Assembly (NCBI GenBank): GCA_015232855.1
Contig: JADFYW010000002.1
Location: 5,490 to 69,489, forward strand
Source of the DNA: Fibrobacteria bacterium
GTDB lineage: Bacteria; Fibrobacterota; Fibrobacteria; UBA11236; JADFYW01
DNA length: 64,000 bases
Direction of reading: 5' to 3'
Positions within the stretch are counted from its first letter, which is position 1, and each line of letters begins with the position of its first letter. Position numbers and translations under genes: made by a program. Under the pieces are notes generated by a model, which had not been told where the DNA came from, made no database searches, and saw only the letters and a program-made list of their open reading frames with translations. Below, piece after piece: positions 11,088-59,276 of the stretch.

Positions 11088-14000
11088 TTATTGGGCACAA
11101 CTCGCTTTGGGATTTTCGTATGCCCGCACCACTCCCTGGCGGTAAACAGAAGTATGCTGACCAGCTGAAGTGGTAAACTTTACTTTCCATATATATACCC
11201 CCGTACCTACAAGAGTTCCCTGGGTGTCTTTTTGATTCCAAACCAACCAGCTTTGCAGCCCACGAGGAGTGCGGCGGTAATGATTATCCAGTTCTTTGCA
11301 ACTCCCAAAGTATTGTGTAGACTGGTGAACAAACTTACCCAGATGATCAAAAATGGCTATTTCTGCAATATAGGCATCTGTAGAAAATACTTGTACGGTT
11401 GACAGACAATTTTCAGGGTATTGAGACAGACTGGACCCCTCATCAACCATCAATTCACATTCAATACCAGGTGCCGAAACAGAACCATCCTCTTGCAAAC
11501 CGGCGGGTTTTATCCACATACGCTGGTATTCATAGGTTCCCTCCTGATTTAGCACAAGAATTACATCACGGCCGGGCGTTACGTTTCCATTTTGGTCAAT
11601 ATGGAGGTTAGCAGACAGAGAGCTGGGATTGTTAAGAGAAACCCCAACAACCGGGACAAAAACGGTAGTATGGTTAATAGGGTTTAAATTCTCTATTCCA
11701 CGTATCTGCATCTCTAATTCTTCAGGCTTATTGGCATTGGGAGCGGCATCCACATAAGGTGAACCAGAATTCATAAATATTTCATCATCAACAAGTGGTT
11801 TAATGATATTTGCATTATTACTAATTACAAAGGTCCAAATGAGGCTGTCCGGGCTTTTTACCACAGGCTCTGAACCGGGAAAAGAAATAAGAGGATACGC
11901 CTCTGATTTTTCCATGTTTGGAGAAATAAACAGAAAAAGAGAGTCCCAGGGAGTTCCATTATTATGTGAAGCTCTTATTTTCTCCGAGAGGGTAATAACC
12001 AGAGTATCCGGCTGTTTTTGTAAATCACCGTTAGAATCTTTGTAATAGGTGTTATCTGAAGGGTGCTTCGTTGCATCCACAATTACAGCACCGATACCAT
12101 CTTCTATAAGAACTTCCTGATTTTGGAAAAGTTTGCCGACGGGCAGAGTGAGACTTGGTGGATTTGAAGGGTCAATACTCGTTTCACCAGCAAGAAATAT
12201 ATTGAGTTTTTCATCCAGACTCCCAGGCAAAAGTATGGCAATGGTTTGAGGATCTCCTGCCAAAAGATTAAGGTCAAAGTCCTGCATCACGGGGTCATAA
12301 AAAGCAGTATAGCCCGAGGCTCCTTCATAAGGCCAGTCTATAGAGGTAATGGGAGAAGGTAACTCAGACAATGGTTCCTTAAAACGAATATAAATTGAAT
12401 CAGCATGTCCGTCGCCATTACCATCTACAATCCAGGCCCTATCAACAGGAACATAGGCAGCATTAACATTTATGCTCGTAGAGACACTACCCATAAATCC
12501 GGTTAATATCATCTGGTTGTTGCTTGCATCAGAGAAAAGGGTACCTTCAAGAATATTATCTCTTTTGTTGGGCGTCTCGGAAAAGCCAATATTTACCATT
12601 GCCTCAAAGATTCCATTATCATTTGATGTTTCATATACCAGCACATCAAGAGTATCACCGGAATCTGTTTTAAATTTAACCAATAGGGTATCTTTCACAT
12701 TTAGCTTTGGGGTCTTATGAATGAGTCGGACTATTATCTGATTACCCGTTACTTCGTCATAGTGGCCAGTAATAGGAGTTCCCAAAATATCAACGAATTG
12801 AATAGTGGTACTCGTAGCATCCATAATGGTAACCTGCCCGTTAATTTTTGTACCGTAGACAGGGTCAGTGTATGTTGCCGACAGATTATCAATATCCTGA
12901 CAATGAAGTATGTCATCTGTCAGTACTCCTGAAACAGACTCCTCCTTTTTGACGGTTCCGCAGTATTTAGTTGAGTTGGCAGCAGTTTGTATCAGTATAA
13001 CATCTTCCAGCTTATCACCAGAGCTTTTACAGGTCACCTTATCCAAAAGAAGAGTGTCTACTATACTATTGGAAAAAGTCTGATCCACGATGCAGATTTG
13101 AACAGACGAGGTATTGCGGTTTATCTCTGCCCCGGTTTTAGCTTCTTTAATCGTAATCTCTTCTTTTTGATTATCATAGGCTACATTAATTACGGCTCTG
13201 GCCGTATCACCTGCAAGTTTTTCTACGGTACCACTTTTGTGAGTGGCCACTTCCACTTTTACTTCACCCGTGAAATAAAACTGTAGTTTGCCATCTCCTG
13301 ACACTGGCCAGGGATTATCATCCAAAGGCAGTTGAACAACCCACTCACCAATACTGTCTCTATATCCAGAAAAGCTCATATTAACTATTTCTGTATCCAT
13401 TATATTTACGCCCTGCCCATTAATGCTGGTGAGTGTGACTGCAACCAATTTATGAGTAATAGCGGCCACATAATCATCCTGGTAAGAGAGGTTCACATGA
13501 GAGATGGATGCGTCCCATTTACCTGCGTCCGTAAGCGAAGCAGGCGTAATAAAATCATCATTCGTAAAGGTAATGCGGCCCAATAGCTGGTTGGGTACAC
13601 CAAAACCTTTGCTATCACTAGCTTCCAATTTATCCAGAGGATCAATATACACCACTTTAAGATCATCACCCTTTCGGATTTCAAAACTGCCATTACTATG
13701 CGCAACAGGTGAAGGTCCTGTTAACAAAGAAACGGGGATACTGACCCCGTAAATACCGGGAGAAAATTCTGTGAGTTGGAAGACCTCTTTATCCGGGAGA
13801 TTCGTATTATTTTCACCCTTGCTATTTGTAAGGGTGACTCTATATTCACTAAGCCGGGTAGGATCAAAAATCTGATCTTCTACCACCACATACAAGGTTG
13901 TTTCATTCCCGATGAGATTTGTTATTGAGTCTCCATTTACATCTGCAAAATACACCTTACCCGGATTGGGAGAAGGTTTGACAAAAAAGGCCCCGGTGGG

Positions 14001-46483: not shown

Positions 46484-46499
46484 TGGCATCATAATTGCA
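46484..46499 (+). promoter_or_regulatory. sigma-54 (-24/-12) promoter upstream of COG4067 paralog 1
   Basis: TGGCATcataaTTGCA with correct spacing. The ATG at 46552 lies ~54 nt downstream. Confidence 0.7.
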
Positions 46500-46551
46500 T
46501 ACTACTGCAATAATAATGCCATGAAAACACCATTGGATTGGAAAAATATAA

Positions 46552-47142: not shown

Positions 47143-48552
47143 TCAACTCTTTTTGTAGTCTTCTTTTTTTAAGCCATACTTGGTGAGTAGCTTGTGCAAC
47201 TGTCGGGTGGTGATATCGGCTTGTTTTGCAGAAAGATTGATTTTACCTTTATTTTCTTCCAGAAGCATTTTTAGATAGTTACGTTCAACACTTTCCACTC
47301 CTTCTTTCCGGGCCAGGGCAAGAGGTTTGGAGGTATTCACGATAACTTTTGGCTCTTGAGATCTATCGGAGTCAAACAGTTCAACAGGGAAACTCTCCGG
47401 AGAAAGGACAGATGAATTCTCCAGAATATACGCACGTTCCATCAAGTTTTCCAGCTCTCTAATGTTCCCGGGCCAGAGGTAGTTTGAAAAAGCCTGGAGT
47501 ACCTGTGGGTGTACTTCCATAATATTCTTCAGTTCAATGTCATTCAAGCGTTGTAATATGTTGGTTACAAGAACAGGAATATCCTCAATACGTTTCCTCA
47601 GGGGAGTGACTTCAATAGGAAAGACATTTAAACGGTAGTAGAGATCTTTCCGGAAATCCCCACTATCTGCCAGGTTCTTGAGATCACTGTTAGTCGCAGA
47701 TACTATTCTTGCATCTGATAGTATATCCGTCTCTCCACCAACTCTTTGGAAACTTTTTTCCTGAAGAACTTTTAATAGTTTAATCTGGAGGGGTTTACTG
47801 ATTGTGCCTACTTCATCCAAAAATATTGTTCCGTTGTGGGCCAACTCAAATTTTCCAAGTTTCTTTCGAATGGCTCCTGTAAAAGAACCTTTTTCGTGGC
47901 CGAATAGCTCACTCTCAATGAGATTTTCGGGGATGGCTCCACAATGCAAGCTGATGTATGGTCCACCTTTCCGATGGCTGTATTTATGAATAAGCTGGGA
48001 CAATACACCCTTGCCTGTCCCGGTTTCTCCGTATAACAGCACTGTCGATTTAGTTGGGGCCACAGATTTTATTTTATTGAGGACAGCCTTCATGGCCGGA
48101 CTTCGAGTTTGAGTGACAGGCATGTCCTCTATATTCCAAAATTCATCTCTGAGATAATCAAGTTCACCCTGGGTTTTTTGGTTCTTGTAATCATCATCTA
48201 ATAAGAATTTTATTTCTTCAGATGTGATTGGATAATTGAGATAAACCTCTGCCCCTGCTCGCACCGCTAACACAGCCCGTTTTGTATTTTGAATAGGTGA
48301 AAGAATAACAAAAAGAGCAGACGGAAAACTAACGCGATAGTTATTTAAAAGAACCTGGTAATCTTCTAAAGGAATTTCTTTTCCATCATCGATAAAATCA
48401 ATCTCGAAAAATACCATATCAATATTGGGATTCCGAATTTTTTCAATATCAGAGCGGGAAATGACTTCGACAAGGTATCCACTGTTAAATCCCGCTTTAA
48501 TAGCTTGAATACATGAATCATTGCCAGAGGCTACAAGTATGTGCCTTTTCAT
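47143..48552 (-). CDS. sigma-54-dependent enhancer-binding protein (degenerate receiver + AAA+ sigma-54 interaction domain + Fis-type HTH)
   Basis: Walker A lies in VLLYGETGTGKGVL and the GAFTGA-loop variant in ESELFGHEKGSFTGA. Also present are FLDEVG, RIVSATN and RKDLYYRLNV. The C-terminal HTH reads ITTRQLHKLLTKYGL. Confidence 0.85.
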   Translation of the reverse strand: MKRHILVASGNDSCIQAIKAGFNSGYLVEVISRSDIEKIRNPNIDMVFFEIDFIDDGKEIPLEDYQVLLNNYRVSFPSALFVILSPIQNTKRAVLAVRAGAEVYLNYPITSEEIKFLLDDDYKNQKTQGELDYLRDEFWNIEDMPVTQTRSPAMKAVLNKIKSVAPTKSTVLLYGETGTGKGVLSQLIHKYSHRKGGPYISLHCGAIPENLIESELFGHEKGSFTGAIRKKLGKFELAHNGTIFLDEVGTISKPLQIKLLKVLQEKSFQRVGGETDILSDARIVSATNSDLKNLADSGDFRKDLYYRLNVFPIEVTPLRKRIEDIPVLVTNILQRLNDIELKNIMEVHPQVLQAFSNYLWPGNIRELENLMERAYILENSSVLSPESFPVELFDSDRSQEPKVIVNTSKPLALARKEGVESVERNYLKMLLEENKGKINLSAKQADITTRQLHKLLTKYGLKKEDYKKS

Positions 48553-50187: not shown

Positions 50188-51630
50188 TTACTGCATTTTT
50201 GAAAGCATCTTATTAATATCCACAATAGCAATTCTGGAAGCATAATCCGACATTGCGTAGGGCAGGATAATCTTTCCATTAAATGCCATGCAACCGCATG
50301 AGTAAACTACGTTGGGCACATAACCCTCTCTTTCATTTTCGTTGGGCTCAAGCAAGGGATGTTTGAGTCTTCCAATAACTTTAGTCGGGTCTTTTTTATC
50401 CAACAAGACAGCCCCAAGACAGTATCTTCGCATGGGCCCCACACCGTGTGTTATTACAAGCCAACCGTCATCAATAAGGATTGGAGAACCACAGTTCCCA
50501 ACCTTTACCATTTCCCATGGGTAACTGGGCTTTAACAGAGGGATATGCTCTCTCCAAAATCTTATATCATCAGAGTAAATCAGATACATATTTTCTCCGT
50601 CCTGGCGGGCCAGAGACGCATATTTACCATCTATTTTTTCGGGAAAAAGTGCCATGCCTTTGTCGTTAATCGAATCCCCGTGAAGAGTAAACATTTTAAA
50701 ATGCAGGAAATCTTTTGTCTCAAGCAATTGGGGAAGGGTCTGTTGTCCACTCCAGGCCGTATACATTGCATAATAAGTTTTTTCGCCGGCTTCACTGGTA
50801 AATAATACAAAACGAGCGTCTTCTATTCCTTTTCTTTCACTGGGTGAATTAGGAAATATTACTCTGGCCGAAAGCGGCAGGTCATCATAAAATTCTATCT
50901 GGTAGTCAGATTGTACCAGCATTTTCATGGTATCCCTTGCTTGATTATTTTTTCGGGTTAACCTGGGATCTTCTTCATATACTTTTCTGACTGCTTTTTT
51001 TAAATCTGATGCCGTATACATTTTCGGAAGGTAGCTGGAAACTTTTTCGGTAAATTTATTTTCTATTTCCATTTCCAGCAATTTATCCTTTAGTCTTTTC
51101 TTGCTGTGTTCGGTGTCGATGAGTGGTTCCGGTGTTGTTACAAACTGGCAGGCTTTCTCCATAGTAATCGAATTATCTTTGTGAATTATACCGTCCCTAA
51201 AGGTGACAGAGGAAATATGTCCTTCTCCAATAGCCCTCAGACTCATAATAAAACGAAGTGAACCACTTGGCACATGATCCTGGTCGGGATGTGGAACAAT
51301 GGATGGATTAAACAGCGCAGCGGATTCAAGGGAAAATTCGCTGGTGAAATAAGCACCAATAAGCAACTGTCTTTCTTTGGAAGGTTTAATATCAGTCAGC
51401 ATATACTGCTCAATTTCCCGGTAATGACTCAGGATAATAGCTTCAGTATCAAAATGCCTATCAGAAAAGTGTCTCAACACGTTATGCAATTCTTGTGTCA
51501 CTTCCTTTTCTGTAAGTGACATAACTCTTGCTATTACTTTGGTATTTTCTTTCTTGTGATAAGGGAAAAAGGGACGGATTATTACGCGGCTCCTATCCGG
51601 TGAAATTTTTATTTTTGTCCGGTGTAACAA
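50188..51630 (-). CDS. GH130-like glycoside phosphorylase/hydrolase-fold protein with ~240-aa N-terminal extension
   Basis: The TTG start follows GGAGGA at 8 nt. The C-terminal half has GIEDARFVLF...YYAMYTAWSG, NDKGMALFPEKIDGKYASLARQ, IRFW and VVYSCG...ILPYAMSD, matching the GH130/COG2152 pattern as I recall it. Confidence 0.6.
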   Translation of the reverse strand: MLHRTKIKISPDRSRVIIRPFFPYHKKENTKVIARVMSLTEKEVTQELHNVLRHFSDRHFDTEAIILSHYREIEQYMLTDIKPSKERQLLIGAYFTSEFSLESAALFNPSIVPHPDQDHVPSGSLRFIMSLRAIGEGHISSVTFRDGIIHKDNSITMEKACQFVTTPEPLIDTEHSKKRLKDKLLEMEIENKFTEKVSSYLPKMYTASDLKKAVRKVYEEDPRLTRKNNQARDTMKMLVQSDYQIEFYDDLPLSARVIFPNSPSERKGIEDARFVLFTSEAGEKTYYAMYTAWSGQQTLPQLLETKDFLHFKMFTLHGDSINDKGMALFPEKIDGKYASLARQDGENMYLIYSDDIRFWREHIPLLKPSYPWEMVKVGNCGSPILIDDGWLVITHGVGPMRRYCLGAVLLDKKDPTKVIGRLKHPLLEPNENEREGYVPNVVYSCGCMAFNGKIILPYAMSDYASRIAIVDINKMLSKMQ

Positions 51631-51661
51631 AATTTTTCCTCCGTTTTATGTGTCTTTATTT

Positions 51662-53926
51662 CTATTCGACTCTTTGATACATGTTTTCACCAGCGCGAAT
51701 ATAATGCATTGCGATAAGTGACTGGAGCCAGGCAAGGGTCGATTCGGCACCCTGATTAAAGTTGGCGCCGTCCGGCGTCAGTCCATCGCAGCAACCATCC
51801 GTCTGATAATCGTATAACTGGACATTTAAATCATTCTGACCCAGGAACCAGTCAAAGCATTTTTGCGCAAAATCCTGATATTTGTTTTTTTTAGAAACAT
51901 AATAAGCCGCCATGCAGGCTTCCATCATTGTTTGAGATTCTACAGGCTGCTGATCAAAATGAGCCTTATAACCATCTTTTGTCATCCACCCCTTGTTGCC
52001 CACAGGTGAAAACATGTTGTGGCTCAATTGTTTTTCCATGAGCCAATCCAACGAAATAAGACCCTGATCAATTATACGCTTCTTTTTCATCATTTGTCCA
52101 GACAATAAAAGCGCATGGGGAATCTTACCGTTTGAATAACTTACGGTCTCTTCCAGCCAGGGCCAGTCGGCCTGGGACACCCCTTTAAAAAGAGAATCTA
52201 ATTTTTTTGCAAGGGTATATTGTATTCTTTTCACTTCGCTGTCTCCAGGATATTCACTAAGATACGCATGTATGCCAATCAAAGAAAAGGCGATTGATCT
52301 TGGGCTTGCCAACTCTTCTGTACATTTTAACGCCTGCCTGAAAAGCACCGCCCCCGCCTGTTGGCAGCCCTTGTTTTTTGATAGCAAATAATTAATTCCC
52401 AGTGCCCATATTGCCCTCCCATGGCAATCATCGGATCCCTCATCCTCCAACCAGTTTCTTTTGTAATCCATGAAGTTGCGGAACCGACCTGTAGCAGGAT
52501 TAAAGGCATGCTGGAGAAAAGACAAGTAACGATATTGTAAGGTCATCAAATCCAAATCATTGGTTAAAAAACGTTGGGCTGTCAAAGTAACTATTAGTGC
52601 CCTGGCATTGTCATCAGTGCAATAGCCATGTTCTCTGTCTGGTAACGAGAATCTGGAGTGCTGGAGAATACCGGTTTCATCGGTTAACCTTATCATATGA
52701 TTTAAGCGTAATTCCGGCAAACTTGCTTGTTTCTTTTCAAGGGTCCTGGGAAAGGAAACAGGCCTGGGACGCCCCATTCGTTCCAATTTAACTTCTTCAA
52801 AAACCCTGAGGTATTGCATGGCAACTTCACGCCATATTGCTTTTCTGCTATACAAGTAACCGCGCTTTCGCATAGCATGACGTTTTGTTTCATCGTCAAA
52901 TAGGTCAATTACCGCTTCTGCCATAGCTTTGGGATTATGAACGGGAACAATAACTCCACGGCCATCGGCCAGCATTTCATTAGCATACAAATAGGGAGTG
53001 GATACCACTGCTTTCCCTGCCCCAAGCGCATAGGCAAGCGTACCCGAAACCATCTGTGATTCTTGAAGATAGGGAGTTACATATACATCTGCTGAACCAA
53101 GGAATTCGCTGAGCTCTTTTAATTCCACAAATCGATTGTGGAATATAATATTTTCACTGACATTCAATTTTTTAGCCATTTGTTCCAGACTAATGCGATA
53201 AGACTCTCCATTTGCTCTTATGGTTGCCGGGTGTGTGGCGCCCAGCACCATATAAATGGCCTCTGGATATTTTTTAACAATATCCGGTAGTGCTTTAACC
53301 ATTTGCTCAATGCCTTTCCCTGGGGAAAGTAATCCAAAAGTCAGTATTACTTTTCGTCCTTCGACCCCGAACTGGTCTTTATAAAAACTGGGATCAACAA
53401 AAGGGATATCCGGTATGCCATGAGGAATAAAAACAATCTTTTCATCAGGAACTTCATATATATTTTTGAGTAATTTCCTGGCAGTTTCCGCCATGATAAC
53501 CACCCGGTCGCATTCTTTAATAATGTTTGTAAACATAGACCGTTGGGTAGGTTTAGGGTGGTTCAATACGGTATGCAGGGTCGCGATAACCGGCATACGG
53601 AGATCCTTGAGAAGATTCAGAACGTAACCACCATCATGACCTCCGAAAATCCCGAATTCATGCTGAAGGGAAACAACGTCCATTAAATTGGTATTGAGAA
53701 ACTCTGCTGACTGTGAATACTGGTTGATGGCGTTCTGATTTATCTCATAATGAACATTATCGGGGTAATCGTATCCATCCTCCTGGTCGTTTATTGCTGC
53801 AACCCAGCATTTTGCATCTGACACCGCTGAGATCGACTGTGCCAGGTCTGTGGTAAAGGTTGCTATGCCGCACTTACGGGGGAGGTAGTTACCAATGACT
53901 CCAATGTTGGTTATACTACTTGGCAT
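51662..53926 (-). CDS. GT4-family glycosyltransferase fused to a ~360-aa C-terminal domain (possibly alpha/alpha-toroid glycosidase-like)
   Basis: The N-terminal half has RKCGIATFTTDL and GLLSPGKGIEQMVKAL...VLGATHP plus a retaining GT-B E-x7-E-like region. The C-terminal half reads ETGILQHSRFSLPDREHGYCTDDNARALI...; its fold assignment is inference. Confidence 0.65.
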   Translation of the reverse strand: MPSSITNIGVIGNYLPRKCGIATFTTDLAQSISAVSDAKCWVAAINDQEDGYDYPDNVHYEINQNAINQYSQSAEFLNTNLMDVVSLQHEFGIFGGHDGGYVLNLLKDLRMPVIATLHTVLNHPKPTQRSMFTNIIKECDRVVIMAETARKLLKNIYEVPDEKIVFIPHGIPDIPFVDPSFYKDQFGVEGRKVILTFGLLSPGKGIEQMVKALPDIVKKYPEAIYMVLGATHPATIRANGESYRISLEQMAKKLNVSENIIFHNRFVELKELSEFLGSADVYVTPYLQESQMVSGTLAYALGAGKAVVSTPYLYANEMLADGRGVIVPVHNPKAMAEAVIDLFDDETKRHAMRKRGYLYSRKAIWREVAMQYLRVFEEVKLERMGRPRPVSFPRTLEKKQASLPELRLNHMIRLTDETGILQHSRFSLPDREHGYCTDDNARALIVTLTAQRFLTNDLDLMTLQYRYLSFLQHAFNPATGRFRNFMDYKRNWLEDEGSDDCHGRAIWALGINYLLSKNKGCQQAGAVLFRQALKCTEELASPRSIAFSLIGIHAYLSEYPGDSEVKRIQYTLAKKLDSLFKGVSQADWPWLEETVSYSNGKIPHALLLSGQMMKKKRIIDQGLISLDWLMEKQLSHNMFSPVGNKGWMTKDGYKAHFDQQPVESQTMMEACMAAYYVSKKNKYQDFAQKCFDWFLGQNDLNVQLYDYQTDGCCDGLTPDGANFNQGAESTLAWLQSLIAMHYIRAGENMYQRVE

Positions 53927-54104
53927 TACCTAATCTCCTTATGATGAAACTTCACCTTTTTTTAACCCGGTCTTTTTTTGCCCCGGTAACGGTGAGAACG
54001 TGTTTTAAATATTTGGTATCCCGTTTAATTCAATCTGTTTTTTTACCGATTGAAACTTGACAACTACCTCATTTTGAACAATGAATAAGTCTGTAACGGT
54101 TAAT

Positions 54105-54120
54105 AGCAAATAGTATGCCG
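54105..54120 (-). promoter_or_regulatory. sigma-54-like promoter facing the GT4/GH130-like operon (divergent from the groES promoter)
   Basis: The minus strand reads CGGCATactatTTGCT with correct spacing. The GT4 start (53926) lies ~180 nt downstream. Confidence 0.5.
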
Positions 54121-54254
54121 TGTATTTATTTCTTCTGAAACAACTCTGTCGTTTTAGCGTCATGAACCTATCTGCATAGAAATACCAACATTCTGACTTA
54201 TTTACTGAGCATAAAATTAATGCCTTAGAAATCAATAATTATTAAGACTCTTTT

Positions 54255-54289
54255 TTATCAAAATGAGAAGCCCTTTTTCATTTTGATAA
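54255..54289. promoter_or_regulatory. 12-bp-arm inverted repeat between the two divergent sigma-54 promoters (candidate enhancer/UAS)
   Basis: TTATCAAAATGA-gaagccctttt-TCATTTTGATAA with perfect arms. It lies ~100 nt from the groES -24 element and ~135 nt from the opposite -24 element. No gene ends here, so a terminator role is unlikely. Confidence 0.4.
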
Positions 54290-54385
54290 TATACGGTCTT
54301 ATTTCTGATGCCCTGTATTTTAAAAGGGACGTTGGATATCATACTATTTCCAGGTATATATTCATAATCCCGGCCGAACTTTTTG

Positions 54386-54401
54386 TGGCACGTGTTTTGC
54401 T
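54386..54401 (+). promoter_or_regulatory. sigma-54 (-24/-12) promoter upstream of groES-groEL
   Basis: TGGCACgtgttTTGCT. GG is at 54387-54388 and GC at 54399-54400 with exactly 10 nt between them. The groES ATG lies ~78 nt downstream. Confidence 0.75.
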
Positions 54402-54477
54402 CATGCTGATATAATAACTAAATGAAATATTGTTCAAATACCTTAATAAATTTCCAACCATAACAACGGAGAAAAAT

Positions 54478-56429
<1,952 letters not shown>

Positions 56430-59260: not shown

Positions 59261-59276
59261 AGCAAAGAATATGCCA
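59261..59276 (-). promoter_or_regulatory. sigma-54 (-24/-12) promoter upstream of clpB
   Basis: The minus strand reads TGGCATattctTTGCT (plus strand AGCAAagaatATGCCA) with correct GG-N10-GC spacing. The clpB ATG lies ~83 nt downstream. Confidence 0.7.

What the first reader, a model, noticed from the sequence alone, without database searches (positions are those of the whole stretch)
54105..54401. Divergent sigma-54 promoter pair sharing a central perfect palindrome (candidate common enhancer)
CGGCATactatTTGCT (minus, 54120-54105) and TGGCACgtgttTTGCT (plus, 54386-54401) fire in opposite directions. Between them lies TTATCAAAATGA-N11-TCATTTTGATAA (54255-54289, 12-bp perfect arms). This is ~135 nt from the minus-strand -24 element and ~100 nt from the plus-strand one, typical enhancer distances for bacterial EBPs. 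No gene terminates here, so it is not a terminator. One dimeric or hexameric activator site could co-activate the glycosyltransferase/GH130-like operon and groESL.
Basis: inference. Interest (0 to 1): 0.6.

Follow-up and report, generated by a model that had tools for sequence, protein, structure and literature searches.

The report
Shared sigma-54 enhancer for heat-shock genes
Between a second copy of the chaperonin genes groES-groEL and a sugar-enzyme operon, this uncultured Fibrobacterota bacterium has two back-to-back sigma-54 promoters around a double activator-binding site; the same site precedes other heat-shock genes here and in relatives, so it is one more case of the activator-driven heat-shock control already mapped in Bacteroidota.

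Summary
All three elements are at the stated coordinates. TGGCACgtgttTTGCT (54386-54401, +) is a perfect sigma-54 promoter 77 nt before groES.

The palindrome (54255-54289) is two copies of a 9-bp box, TCA-AAA-TGA, 20 bp apart. This paired box occurs perfectly only three times in the 5.4-Mb genome. Each time it lies 55-150 nt upstream of -24/-12 elements of stress genes (groESL, three hsp20 genes, a Zn-peptidase operon).

The box is the local form of GTTTCA-N3-TGAAAC. In another family of the class, that motif precedes perfect sigma-54 promoters of groESL, grpE, dnaK and clpB; htpG has only a weaker upstream copy.

The whole intergenic region aligns with that of the closest relative. Both promoters and the box pair, including its spacer, are conserved there.

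The minus-strand element CGGCATactatTTGCT corresponds to that relative's hsp20 promoter. The hsp20 genes are missing here, so it now reads into the GT4/GH130 operon.

The likely activator is a sigma-54 enhancer-binding protein encoded directly after dnaJ. It is conserved throughout the class and lacks the receiver's phospho-accepting Asp.

It is a new member of a known kind and of moderate interest.

The parts
54386..54401 (+). Sigma-54 promoter of groES1-groEL1 (TGGCACgtgttTTGCT)
   Evidence: Perfect consensus and the only perfect match in the window. It lies 77 nt upstream of the groES ATG. The orthologous element in G004 is TGGCATaggttTTGCT. rpoN is present in the genome.
54255..54289 (.). 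Enhancer (upstream activating sequence, UAS): two inverted TCA-AAA-TGA boxes (54258-54266 and 54278-54286), 20 bp centre to centre
   Evidence: The paired core occurs perfectly only 3 times in the genome, always next to -24/-12 elements. It is conserved in G004 including the spacer. The related box GTTTCA-N3-TGAAAC lies upstream of sigma-54 heat-shock promoters in G040, G005, G015 and G013.
54105..54120 (-). Sigma-54-type promoter CGGCATactatTTGCT reading towards the GT4/GH130 operon (a former hsp20 promoter)
   Evidence: It aligns with the G004 hsp20 promoter TGGCACactgtTTGCA, and the leader is conserved as far as the hsp20 ribosome-binding site (Shine-Dalgarno, SD). The same CGGCAT variant with a dual box upstream drives hsp20 at C286:27099. 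This form of the motif is rare genome-wide.
54189..54210 (-). Conserved block AGTAAATAAGTCAGAATG between the enhancer and the minus promoter; role unknown (a bending site is one possibility)
   Evidence: It aligns with G004 GCAAGTAAGTCAGGAATG inside otherwise diverged sequence.
54069..54077 (-). Third perfect TCAAAATGA copy, 28 nt downstream of the minus -12 element; probably a relic of the hsp20 SD sequence rather than a working box
   Evidence: Seen. It aligns with G004 CAAAAGGAGG, the hsp20 SD.
54478..56429 (+). groES1 (54478-54765) and groEL1 (54807-56429), the CIRCE-less chaperonin paralogue
   Evidence: Pfam Cpn10 and Cpn60. A second groES-groEL with the genome's only CIRCE element lies at C222:81605-79629.
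50188..53926 (-). GT4-fusion glycosyltransferase (51662-53926) and GH130-like gene (50188-51630), the operon downstream of the minus promoter
   Evidence: Pfam. The G004 orthologue (82% identity) lies downstream of hsp20 x3 and has its own perfect TGGCACgcaccTTGCA.
59261..59276 (-). Sigma-54 promoter of clpB (TGGCATattctTTGCT), probably the same regulon
   Evidence: clpB also has sigma-54 promoters in G040, G015, G013 and G003.

Best explanation
The 550-bp region between groES1 and the GT4/GH130 operon is a bidirectional, enhancer-dependent control region of a sigma-54 heat-shock and stress regulon.

Shown by sequence and comparison:
- A perfect -24/-12 promoter faces groES1-groEL1.
- A conserved -24/-12 element faces the other way.
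- Between them sit two TCA-AAA-TGA boxes, each itself a small palindrome. They are 20 bp (two helical turns) apart and therefore on the same face of the DNA.

Inferred mechanism:
- Each box binds a dimer of a sigma-54 enhancer-binding protein (EBP) through its Fis-type helix-turn-helix (HTH) domain.
- The two dimers seed the active AAA+ ring.
- The ring reaches RNA polymerase-sigma-54 at either promoter by DNA looping and uses ATP to open it. One enhancer therefore co-induces both transcription units.

The most likely activator (inferred, about 0.6) is the 453-aa EBP at C222:72576-73937, 3 kb beyond the window end. It is the last gene of the groES2-groEL2-hrcA-grpE-dnaK-dnaJ cluster. Its receiver-like domain lacks the phospho-accepting Asp, so it is probably not switched by phosphorylation.

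The minus promoter is the former hsp20 promoter. The hsp20 genes were lost at this site, and the promoter now reads through a 179-nt leader into the GT4/GH130 operon.
For: 1. Sigma-54 machinery is present. rpoN is found and about 22 EBP genes.

2. The paired box is far from chance. It occurs perfectly 3 times in 5.4 Mb and is essentially confined to this genome among 296 genomes of the phylum.
   - All three copies lie near -24/-12 elements of stress genes: groESL1; hsp20 x3 on one side and a membrane protein plus cbpA-type dnaJ on the other; a Zn-peptidase operon on one side and a small acidic protein on the other.

3. Boxes and promoters are associated genome-wide.
   - 9 of 50 intergenic sigma-54 sites have at least one box 40-200 nt upstream (0.94 expected, p = 4e-7).
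   - 5 of 50 have at least two boxes (0.07 expected, p = 1e-8).

4. The same box accompanies sigma-54 heat-shock promoters in relatives.
   - G040 (another family of the class): GTTTCA-N3-TGAAAC 50-80 nt upstream of perfect sigma-54 promoters of clpB, dnaK, grpE and groESL; htpG has only a weaker upstream copy.
   - G005: box copies upstream of the sigma-54 promoter of hsp20.
   - G015 and G013: boxes 115-135 nt upstream of clpB sigma-54 promoters.

5. Orthologous footprint in G004. Both promoters, the box pair with its spacer, and the leader are conserved in otherwise unalignable DNA. G004 also has a divergent sigma-54 pair around the box pair.

6. Evidence for the proposed activator.
   - Its orthologous group is sharply separated from paralogues and present in 81 of 81 genomes of the class.
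   - It lies next to dnaJ, or 7-8 kb downstream of groES, in families f1, f3 and f4.
   - Its HTH is nearly invariant across the class.
   - In the reduced genome G005 only three EBPs exist. The other two are an NtrC-like EBP coupled to a histidine kinase and a GAF-domain type.

7. Published context: mapped transcription start sites (TSS) show sigma-54 promoters at groESL, dnaK, grpE-dnaJ, htpG, lon and clpB in Flavobacterium psychrophilum (PMC9723704).
Against: - There is no transcript, start-site or binding evidence.
- The minus element departs from consensus at two positions (C at -26, T at -21). It sits 179 nt from the ATG and could be a decaying relic. The GT4-proximal sigma-54 promoter that G004 has is absent in G000.
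- More distant GT4 orthologues (47-60% identity) have no sigma-54 promoter.
- In family f3 the same box sits about 45 nt upstream of an ordinary sigma-70 -35/-10 plus CIRCE at groES, with no sigma-54 element. The box-binding protein therefore need not act only as a sigma-54 activator, or need not be an EBP at all.
- Another EBP (C286:6661-7992, with its own kinase) lies in a contig full of box and sigma-54 loci and could be the cognate activator.
- clpB in this genome has only weak box-like sequences.
- Only one close relative (G004) exists for footprinting, and its groES1 upstream region is split by a contig break.
Confidence: 0.7

Rival explanations
1. Only the groES1 promoter is served by the enhancer. 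The minus-strand CGGCATactatTTGCT is an inactive relic of the hsp20 promoter left after the hsp20 genes were deleted, and the GT4/GH130 operon is transcribed from some other promoter.
For: - The element has two departures from consensus, where G004 has a perfect site.
- It has a 179-nt leader that holds apparent remnants of the hsp20 5' end.
- More distant GT4 orthologues lack sigma-54 promoters.
Against: - GG and GC with exact spacing, and TTGC, are kept.
- The same CGGCAT variant drives the hsp20 cluster at C286.
- G004 keeps its GT4 operon under sigma-54 control twice over.
- No convincing sigma-70 promoter faces the GT4 gene.
Confidence: 0.3
2. The boxes bind a conserved stress regulator that is not the sigma-54 activator, such as a repressor or an architectural or co-regulatory protein. 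The true enhancer would then lie elsewhere.
For: - In f3 genomes the box sits upstream of sigma-70 plus CIRCE groES promoters that have no -24/-12 element.
- In G040 htpG, a perfect box lies downstream of the promoter.
- A third box copy lies downstream of the minus promoter here.
Against: - The box is the only motif shared upstream of the sigma-54 heat-shock promoters. In G040 it keeps a tight distance of 50-80 nt from -24.
- Every sigma-54 promoter needs an upstream activator site.
- Pairs spaced two helical turns apart are typical of activator seeding.
- The third copy here is explained as an SD relic.
Confidence: 0.15
3. The boxes are an enhancer, but for a different EBP. Candidates are the kinase-coupled C286:6661-7992, or the EBP inside the window at 47143-48552.
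For: - The C286 EBP sits among box and sigma-54 loci: trehalose synthase (TreS), glycogen phosphorylase (GlgP), hsp20 and cbpA.
- The regulon includes two single-domain receivers resembling the C286 EBP's receiver.
- The window EBP is only 6 kb away.
Against: - Neither has a clear orthologue in G040 or G005, which both have the box plus sigma-54 heat-shock promoters.
- No boxes are found near the promoters next to the window EBP.
Confidence: 0.25
4. The palindrome acts as an RNA or DNA hairpin, for example a terminator, attenuator or thermometer.
For: It would fold at -21.7 kcal/mol, z = -7.3.
Against: - No gene ends there, there is no T-run and no terminator call, and no Rfam family matches.
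- It lies upstream of both promoters, so it should not be transcribed.
- The three genomic copies share the arm sequence but not the spacer, and single boxes occur in relatives. That pattern fits a protein site, not a structure.
Confidence: 0.03

Closest known systems
Sigma-54 ('SM4') promoters of protein-quality-control genes in Flavobacterium psychrophilum (PMC9723704), and the position-specific scoring-matrix survey predicting sigma-54 control of GroES/GroEL/IbpA/GrpE/DnaJ/DnaK in Bacteroidota and Planctomycetota (PMC12316311)
   Same: -24/-12 promoters in front of groESL, clpB, dnaK, grpE, htpG and small heat-shock genes, in a phylum of the same superphylum. An enhancer-dependent chaperone regulon replaces or supplements sigma-32 and repressor control.
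   Different: Those papers do not define the enhancer sequence or the activator. Here a box (TCA-WWW-TGA / GTTTCA-N3-TGAAAC) and a dnaJ-linked candidate activator are proposed. The sigma-54 groESL here is a second paralogue beside a CIRCE-controlled one. Fibrobacterota are not covered in either paper.
Bradyrhizobium japonicum groESL multigene family, with groESL3 under NifA/sigma-54 and other copies under CIRCE or sigma-32 (own knowledge: Fischer et al. 1993; Babst et al. 1996)
   Same: Chaperonin paralogues in one genome are split between a sigma-54/activator promoter and a CIRCE/HrcA promoter.
   Different: There the activator is the nitrogen-fixation regulator NifA (site TGT-N10-ACA) and the context is symbiosis. 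Here the regulon consists of heat-shock and stress genes and uses a different box.
Escherichia coli zraP-zraSR and hyc-hyp: divergent sigma-54 promoters sharing activator sites in the intergenic region. Also glnAp2, with two NtrC dimer sites. (Own knowledge.)
   Same: One enhancer lies between two outward-facing sigma-54 promoters. Paired dimer sites on one face of the helix seed the AAA+ oligomer.
   Different: The activator families, signals and site sequences differ. The spacing here is 20-21 bp.
E. coli ibpB sigma-54 promoter, and the PspF/pspA system (own knowledge)
   Same: Sigma-54 transcribes a small heat-shock or stress gene. PspF is an activator controlled by protein-protein interaction rather than phosphorylation.
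   Different: PspF has no N-terminal domain and is held by PspA. Here the candidate activator has a pseudo-receiver domain, and its control is unknown.

Membership tests
Sigma-54 (-24/-12) promoter | GG and GC exactly 10 nt apart within TGGCAC-N5-TTGCW | tested here: met
   The plus site has 0 mismatches. The minus site keeps GG, GC and TTGC, and departs at -26 (C) and -21 (T).
Sigma-54 (-24/-12) promoter | The genome encodes sigma-54 and enhancer-binding proteins | tested here: met
   rpoN at C296:7193-7666. About 22 genes with a Sigma54_activat domain.
Sigma-54 (-24/-12) promoter | Intergenic, facing a gene, and conserved in orthologous regions | tested here: met
   The sites lie 77 nt before groES and 179 nt before GT4. 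Both align with sigma-54 elements in G004.
Sigma-54 (-24/-12) promoter | Transcription starts about 12 nt downstream of the GC element and depends on rpoN | not testable with these tools
Bacterial enhancer (UAS) of a sigma-54 activator | Inverted-repeat site(s) roughly 60-200 nt upstream of -24 | tested here: met
   Box centres lie 104 and 124 nt upstream of the first base of the plus promoter element, and 142 and 162 nt upstream of the minus one.
Bacterial enhancer (UAS) of a sigma-54 activator | The same site recurs upstream of several sigma-54 promoters of one regulon | tested here: met
   9 of 50 intergenic sites against 0.94 expected; 5 of 50 with two boxes against 0.07 expected. Loci are listed.
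Bacterial enhancer (UAS) of a sigma-54 activator | Conserved in relatives together with the promoter | tested here: met
   G004, G040, G005, G015 and G013.
Bacterial enhancer (UAS) of a sigma-54 activator | Bound by the activator and required for activation | not testable with these tools
   Needs a gel-shift (EMSA) or footprint assay and reporter mutants.
CIRCE/HrcA operator | TTAGCACTC-N9-GAGTGCTAA between promoter and groES | tested here: not met
   The genome's only good CIRCE is at C222:81645, before groES2. There is none in this intergenic region.
Intrinsic terminator | G+C-rich hairpin followed by a T-run at the end of a gene | tested here: not met
   0 terminator-like sites. The flanking genes diverge.

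The most novel reading that the evidence does not exclude
The dnaJ-linked enhancer-binding protein would be the master positive regulator of the heat-shock response in Fibrobacterota. It has a receiver-like domain that has lost its phospho-Asp, and it would recognise GTTTCA-N3-TGAAAC. It may play the same role in other poorly studied phyla where earlier notes of this scan report the same box. In this reading it is switched by free DnaK/DnaJ or by unfolded protein rather than by a kinase. That would be a third type of bacterial heat-shock control, beside sigma-32 and the repressors HrcA, HspR and CtsR.
Probability: 0.3. Interest if true: 0.8.

Novelty: new member of a known kind. Interest (0 to 1): 0.5.

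Why it matters
Textbook bacterial heat-shock control uses sigma-32 or repressors such as HrcA. Mapped transcription starts in Flavobacterium show that the Bacteroidota put chaperone genes behind sigma-54 promoters, but the activator and its DNA site have not been described in the papers I could search.

This region, read with its paralogous and orthologous copies, offers three things:
- a concrete enhancer sequence;
- a recurring bidirectional architecture;
- a specific candidate activator encoded in the dnaK-dnaJ cluster.

All three are testable in the cultivable relative Fibrobacter succinogenes or in E. coli reconstitution.

The region also shows two layers of control in one genome: a CIRCE/HrcA chaperonin copy and a sigma-54 copy. 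It further shows how a promoter can be inherited by a new operon after a deletion.

Tried and rejected
- The metagenome scan with GroEL1 returned only hits of 72% identity or less from many phyla. Two had sigma-54 sites in the right place, but they were of no use for footprinting.
- The homologue search with the GT4 protein found no relative closer than G004 (82%). The next hits (58-60%, including a Chitinivibrionales contig) have no sigma-54 promoter.
- The strict motif GTTTCA-N3-TGAAAC is not enriched in G000 itself. The local form is TCA-WWW-TGA with T/A-rich flanks.
- Global MAFFT alignment of the hsp20 loci of G000 and G004 was uninformative. Local alignment of the groES region was decisive.
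- An E. coli-type IHF (integration host factor) consensus does not fit the box or the conserved block (by eye).
- An extended -10 element, TGATATAAT (54407-54415), lies just after the groES -12 element and was considered as a sigma-70 promoter. It is not conserved in G004 (TGATTTTGG), so it was kept only as a side note.
- The Rfam scan found nothing.
- A call to align the three palindrome copies used the wrong locus coordinates and is not used.

Full report
**Observation**

The 552-bp region between the GT4-fusion gene (ATG at 53926, minus strand) and groES (ATG at 54478) contains the three reported elements at the stated coordinates.
- TGGCACgtgttTTGCT (54386-54401, +) is the only perfect match to TGGCAC-N5-TTGCW in the window.
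- CGGCATactatTTGCT (54120-54105, -) keeps GG-N10-GC.
- TTATCAAAATGA-N11-TCATTTTGATAA occupies 54255-54289.

A generic 2-mismatch sigma-54 match is at background in the window (34 found, 26.7 expected). The restricted form YGGCAY-N5-TTGCW is rare, with 57 sites on both strands of the 5.4-Mb genome. TGGCAT is as common as TGGCAC among them, so the T at position 6 is not a real departure in this organism.

**What the palindrome is**

Each arm contains TCA-AAA-TGA, which is itself a 9-bp palindrome. The two copies are 20 bp apart centre to centre.

The paired core TCAAAATGA-N11/12-TCATTTTGA occurs perfectly only three times in the genome. It is found in only 4 of 296 genomes of the phylum, while the reversed control pattern found nothing.

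The other two copies are on contig C286.
- One lies between a minus-strand TGGCATatttaTTGCT (a 129-aa protein plus a Zn-metallopeptidase) and a plus-strand TGGTATacaatTTGCA (a small acidic protein).
- The other lies between a minus-strand TGGCATcctatTTGCG (a membrane protein plus a CbpA-type DnaJ) and a plus-strand CGGCATggtttTTGCG, 41 nt before three tandem hsp20 genes.

Slightly degenerate pairs sit between divergent sigma-54 promoters on C302 and C111. Single boxes precede sigma-54 sites at another hsp20 gene and at a trehalose-synthase gene.

A control using intergenic positions only gives a clear association:
- 9 of 50 intergenic sigma-54 sites have at least one box 40-200 nt upstream (0.94 expected, p = 4e-7).
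- 5 of 50 have at least two boxes (0.07 expected, p = 1e-8).

**Relatives**

The genome belongs to Fibrobacterota. An NCBI source names the G004 orthologue of the GT4 protein as coming from a 'Fibrobacterota bacterium'.

G000 has two groES-groEL operons. The copy outside the window (C222:81605-79629) carries the genome's only CIRCE element. The window copy has none.

Among 35 relatives, most have a single groES with a sigma-70 -35/-10 plus CIRCE. Sigma-54 sites precede groES in G006, G002 and G040.

In G040, from another family of the class, perfect sigma-54 promoters precede groESL, grpE, dnaK, clpB and htpG. The first four have a GTTTCA-N3-TGAAAC box 50-80 nt upstream of -24. htpG has a weaker upstream copy and a perfect copy downstream of the promoter.

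The arms of the G000 palindromes (TTTCAAAATGAAA on C286) are this same box. Further cases:
- In the 1.6-Mb genome G005, hsp20 has a sigma-54 promoter with two box copies upstream.
- In f3 genomes, clpB has AGGCAC-N5-TTGCT with a box 115-135 nt upstream.

**Orthologous footprint**

Only one close relative, G004, exists in the searched collections.

Local alignment of the whole G000 intergenic region with G004:C135:11-409 scores 130. Shuffled sequences gave 43 +/- 6.6, with a maximum of 67. The aligned blocks are:
- the groES promoter (G004 TGGCATaggttTTGCT, at a contig start; a groES1 fragment 89% identical sits at the end of another G004 contig);
- the box pair including its spacer (ATTATCAAAATGAAAAAGGGCTTCTCATTTTGATAA against ATTCCCAAAATGAAAAGGGCCTTCTCACTTTGAAGA);
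- a block AAGTAAGTCAG(G)AATG of unknown role;
- the minus promoter, which aligns with G004's hsp20 promoter TGGCACactgtTTGCA and its leader as far as the hsp20 ribosome-binding site (Shine-Dalgarno, SD).

In G004 this promoter drives three hsp20 genes followed by the GT4 operon, which also has its own perfect TGGCACgcaccTTGCA. In G000 the hsp20 genes are absent at this site and the GT4-proximal promoter is not present. The ex-hsp20 promoter therefore reads through a 179-nt leader into the GT4/GH130 operon.

The third perfect TCAAAATGA at 54069-54077 aligns with the hsp20 SD and is probably a relic of it.

More distant GT4 orthologues have no sigma-54 promoter.

**The activator**

rpoN is present, along with about 22 EBP genes.

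One EBP (C222:72576-73937, 453 aa) overlaps the dnaJ stop codon by 4 nt. It closes the cluster groES2-groEL2-hrcA-grpE-dnaK-dnaJ.
- Its orthologous group (44-68% identity, full length, E of 1e-117 or better) is sharply separated from paralogues (42% or less). It is present in 81 of 81 genomes sampled from the class.
- In at least 17 genomes of f1 and f3 it lies 7-8 kb downstream of groES on the same strand. It directly follows dnaJ in G005, G010, G009 and G279.
- Pfam finds a sub-threshold receiver domain, Sigma54_activat, an AAA lid and HTH_8.
- The phospho-accepting Asp is Ser in f1-f3 orthologues, Asp in G040 and G279, and Glu or Asn in other f5 genomes.
- The helix-turn-helix (HTH) sequence is nearly invariant (LGISRsTLWRKiK).
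- G005 has only three EBPs. The other two are an NtrC-like EBP coupled to a histidine kinase and a GAF-domain type. Its usable sigma-54 sites are at hsp20 and amtB.

This makes the dnaJ-linked protein the best candidate, at about 0.6. A kinase-coupled EBP on C286, surrounded by box and sigma-54 loci, remains a rival.

**Mechanism**

Shown:
- the sequence elements and their significance;
- their recurrence in the genome;
- their conservation in relatives.

Inferred:
- Two activator dimers bind the two boxes on one face of the helix.
- They assemble the AAA+ ring and open the sigma-54 closed complexes at either flanking promoter by DNA looping.
- The result is co-induction of groESL1 and the operon on the other side.

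**Unexplained**

In f3 genomes the same box lies about 45 nt upstream of a sigma-70 -35 at the CIRCE-controlled groES, with no -24/-12 element.

**Comparison with what is known**

Sigma-54 promoters at groESL, lon, dnaK, grpE-dnaJ, htpG and clpB were mapped by transcription start sites in Flavobacterium psychrophilum. That paper notes three possible activators and assigns none (PMC9723704).

A scoring-matrix survey predicts the same control in Bacteroidota and Planctomycetota (PMC12316311).

I found no paper on Fibrobacter combining sigma-54 with chaperones, and none describing this box as an enhancer.

Earlier notes of this scan report the same box at sigma-54 heat-shock promoters in Eisenbacteria and Hydrogenedentota. 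I did not check those notes.

This finding is therefore a new member of a known kind. Its added value is a defined enhancer, a bidirectional layout and a candidate activator.

**Limits**

There are no expression or binding data. Only one close relative exists, and its assembly breaks inside the region.

Noticed in passing
window 46484-46521: A perfect 38-bp palindrome made of two back-to-back sigma-54 consensus sites, TGGCATcataaTTGCA-tactac-TGCAAtaataATGCCA. It lies next to the EBP gene inside the window (47143-48552). No TCA-WWW-TGA boxes are nearby.
   Followed up: partly
G000 contig C222:72576-81650 (3-12 kb beyond the window end): A conserved heat-shock supercluster, groES2-groEL2-hrcA-grpE-dnaK-dnaJ-EBP. 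It carries the genome's only CIRCE element, before groES2. The EBP start overlaps the dnaJ stop, and the EBP's receiver-like domain lacks the phospho-Asp.
   Followed up: yes
L004-L031 (groES upstream regions of family f3 genomes): GTTTCA-N3-TGAAAC lies about 45 nt upstream of a normal sigma-70 -35/-10 plus CIRCE, with no -24/-12 element. What the box does there is unexplained.
   Followed up: partly
L123 (G040:C33), box at 713-727: At htpG, a perfect GTTTCATTTTGAAAC lies about 100 nt downstream of the sigma-54 promoter and about 20 nt before the ATG. A weaker copy lies upstream.
   Followed up: no
G000 contig C286:1-31612: A 'sigma-54 stress island': TreS-Pep2, GlgB, a kinase-coupled EBP, a single-domain receiver, GlgP, a further TCAATTTGA-N11-TCAAATTGA pair (13888-13916), a Zn-peptidase operon, cbpA-type dnaJ and three hsp20 genes. 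Most of these lie behind -24/-12 elements.
   Followed up: partly
window 54407-54415: An extended -10 element, TGATATAAT, lies 6 nt after the groES -12 element and could be a basal sigma-70 promoter. It is not conserved in G004 (TGATTTTGG).
   Followed up: partly
G000 C286:26830-26935 and C222:77430-77530 (grpE-dnaK spacer): REP-like (repetitive extragenic palindrome) inverted repeats, CATTCCGGCTTGTCCGGAATC...GATTCCGGACAAGCCGGAATG, and a related GTCATTCCCCGGCTTGGCCGGGGAATC element. They are inserted in intergenic regions. One lengthens the distance between the box pair and a promoter.
   Followed up: no
G004 contigs C156 (end) and C135 (start): These two contigs probably join across a gap of about 200 nt inside groES1. 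If so, G004 reads groEL1-groES1 <- sigma-54 | box pair | sigma-54 -> hsp20 x3 -> GT4 operon.
   Followed up: partly
window 54108-54117 and 54340-54349; also 54115-54127 and 54308-54320: A 10-nt perfect inverted repeat and a 13-nt direct repeat copy part of the minus promoter sequence on the groES side of the palindrome. The second copies lack GG/GC. Their meaning is unknown.
   Followed up: no
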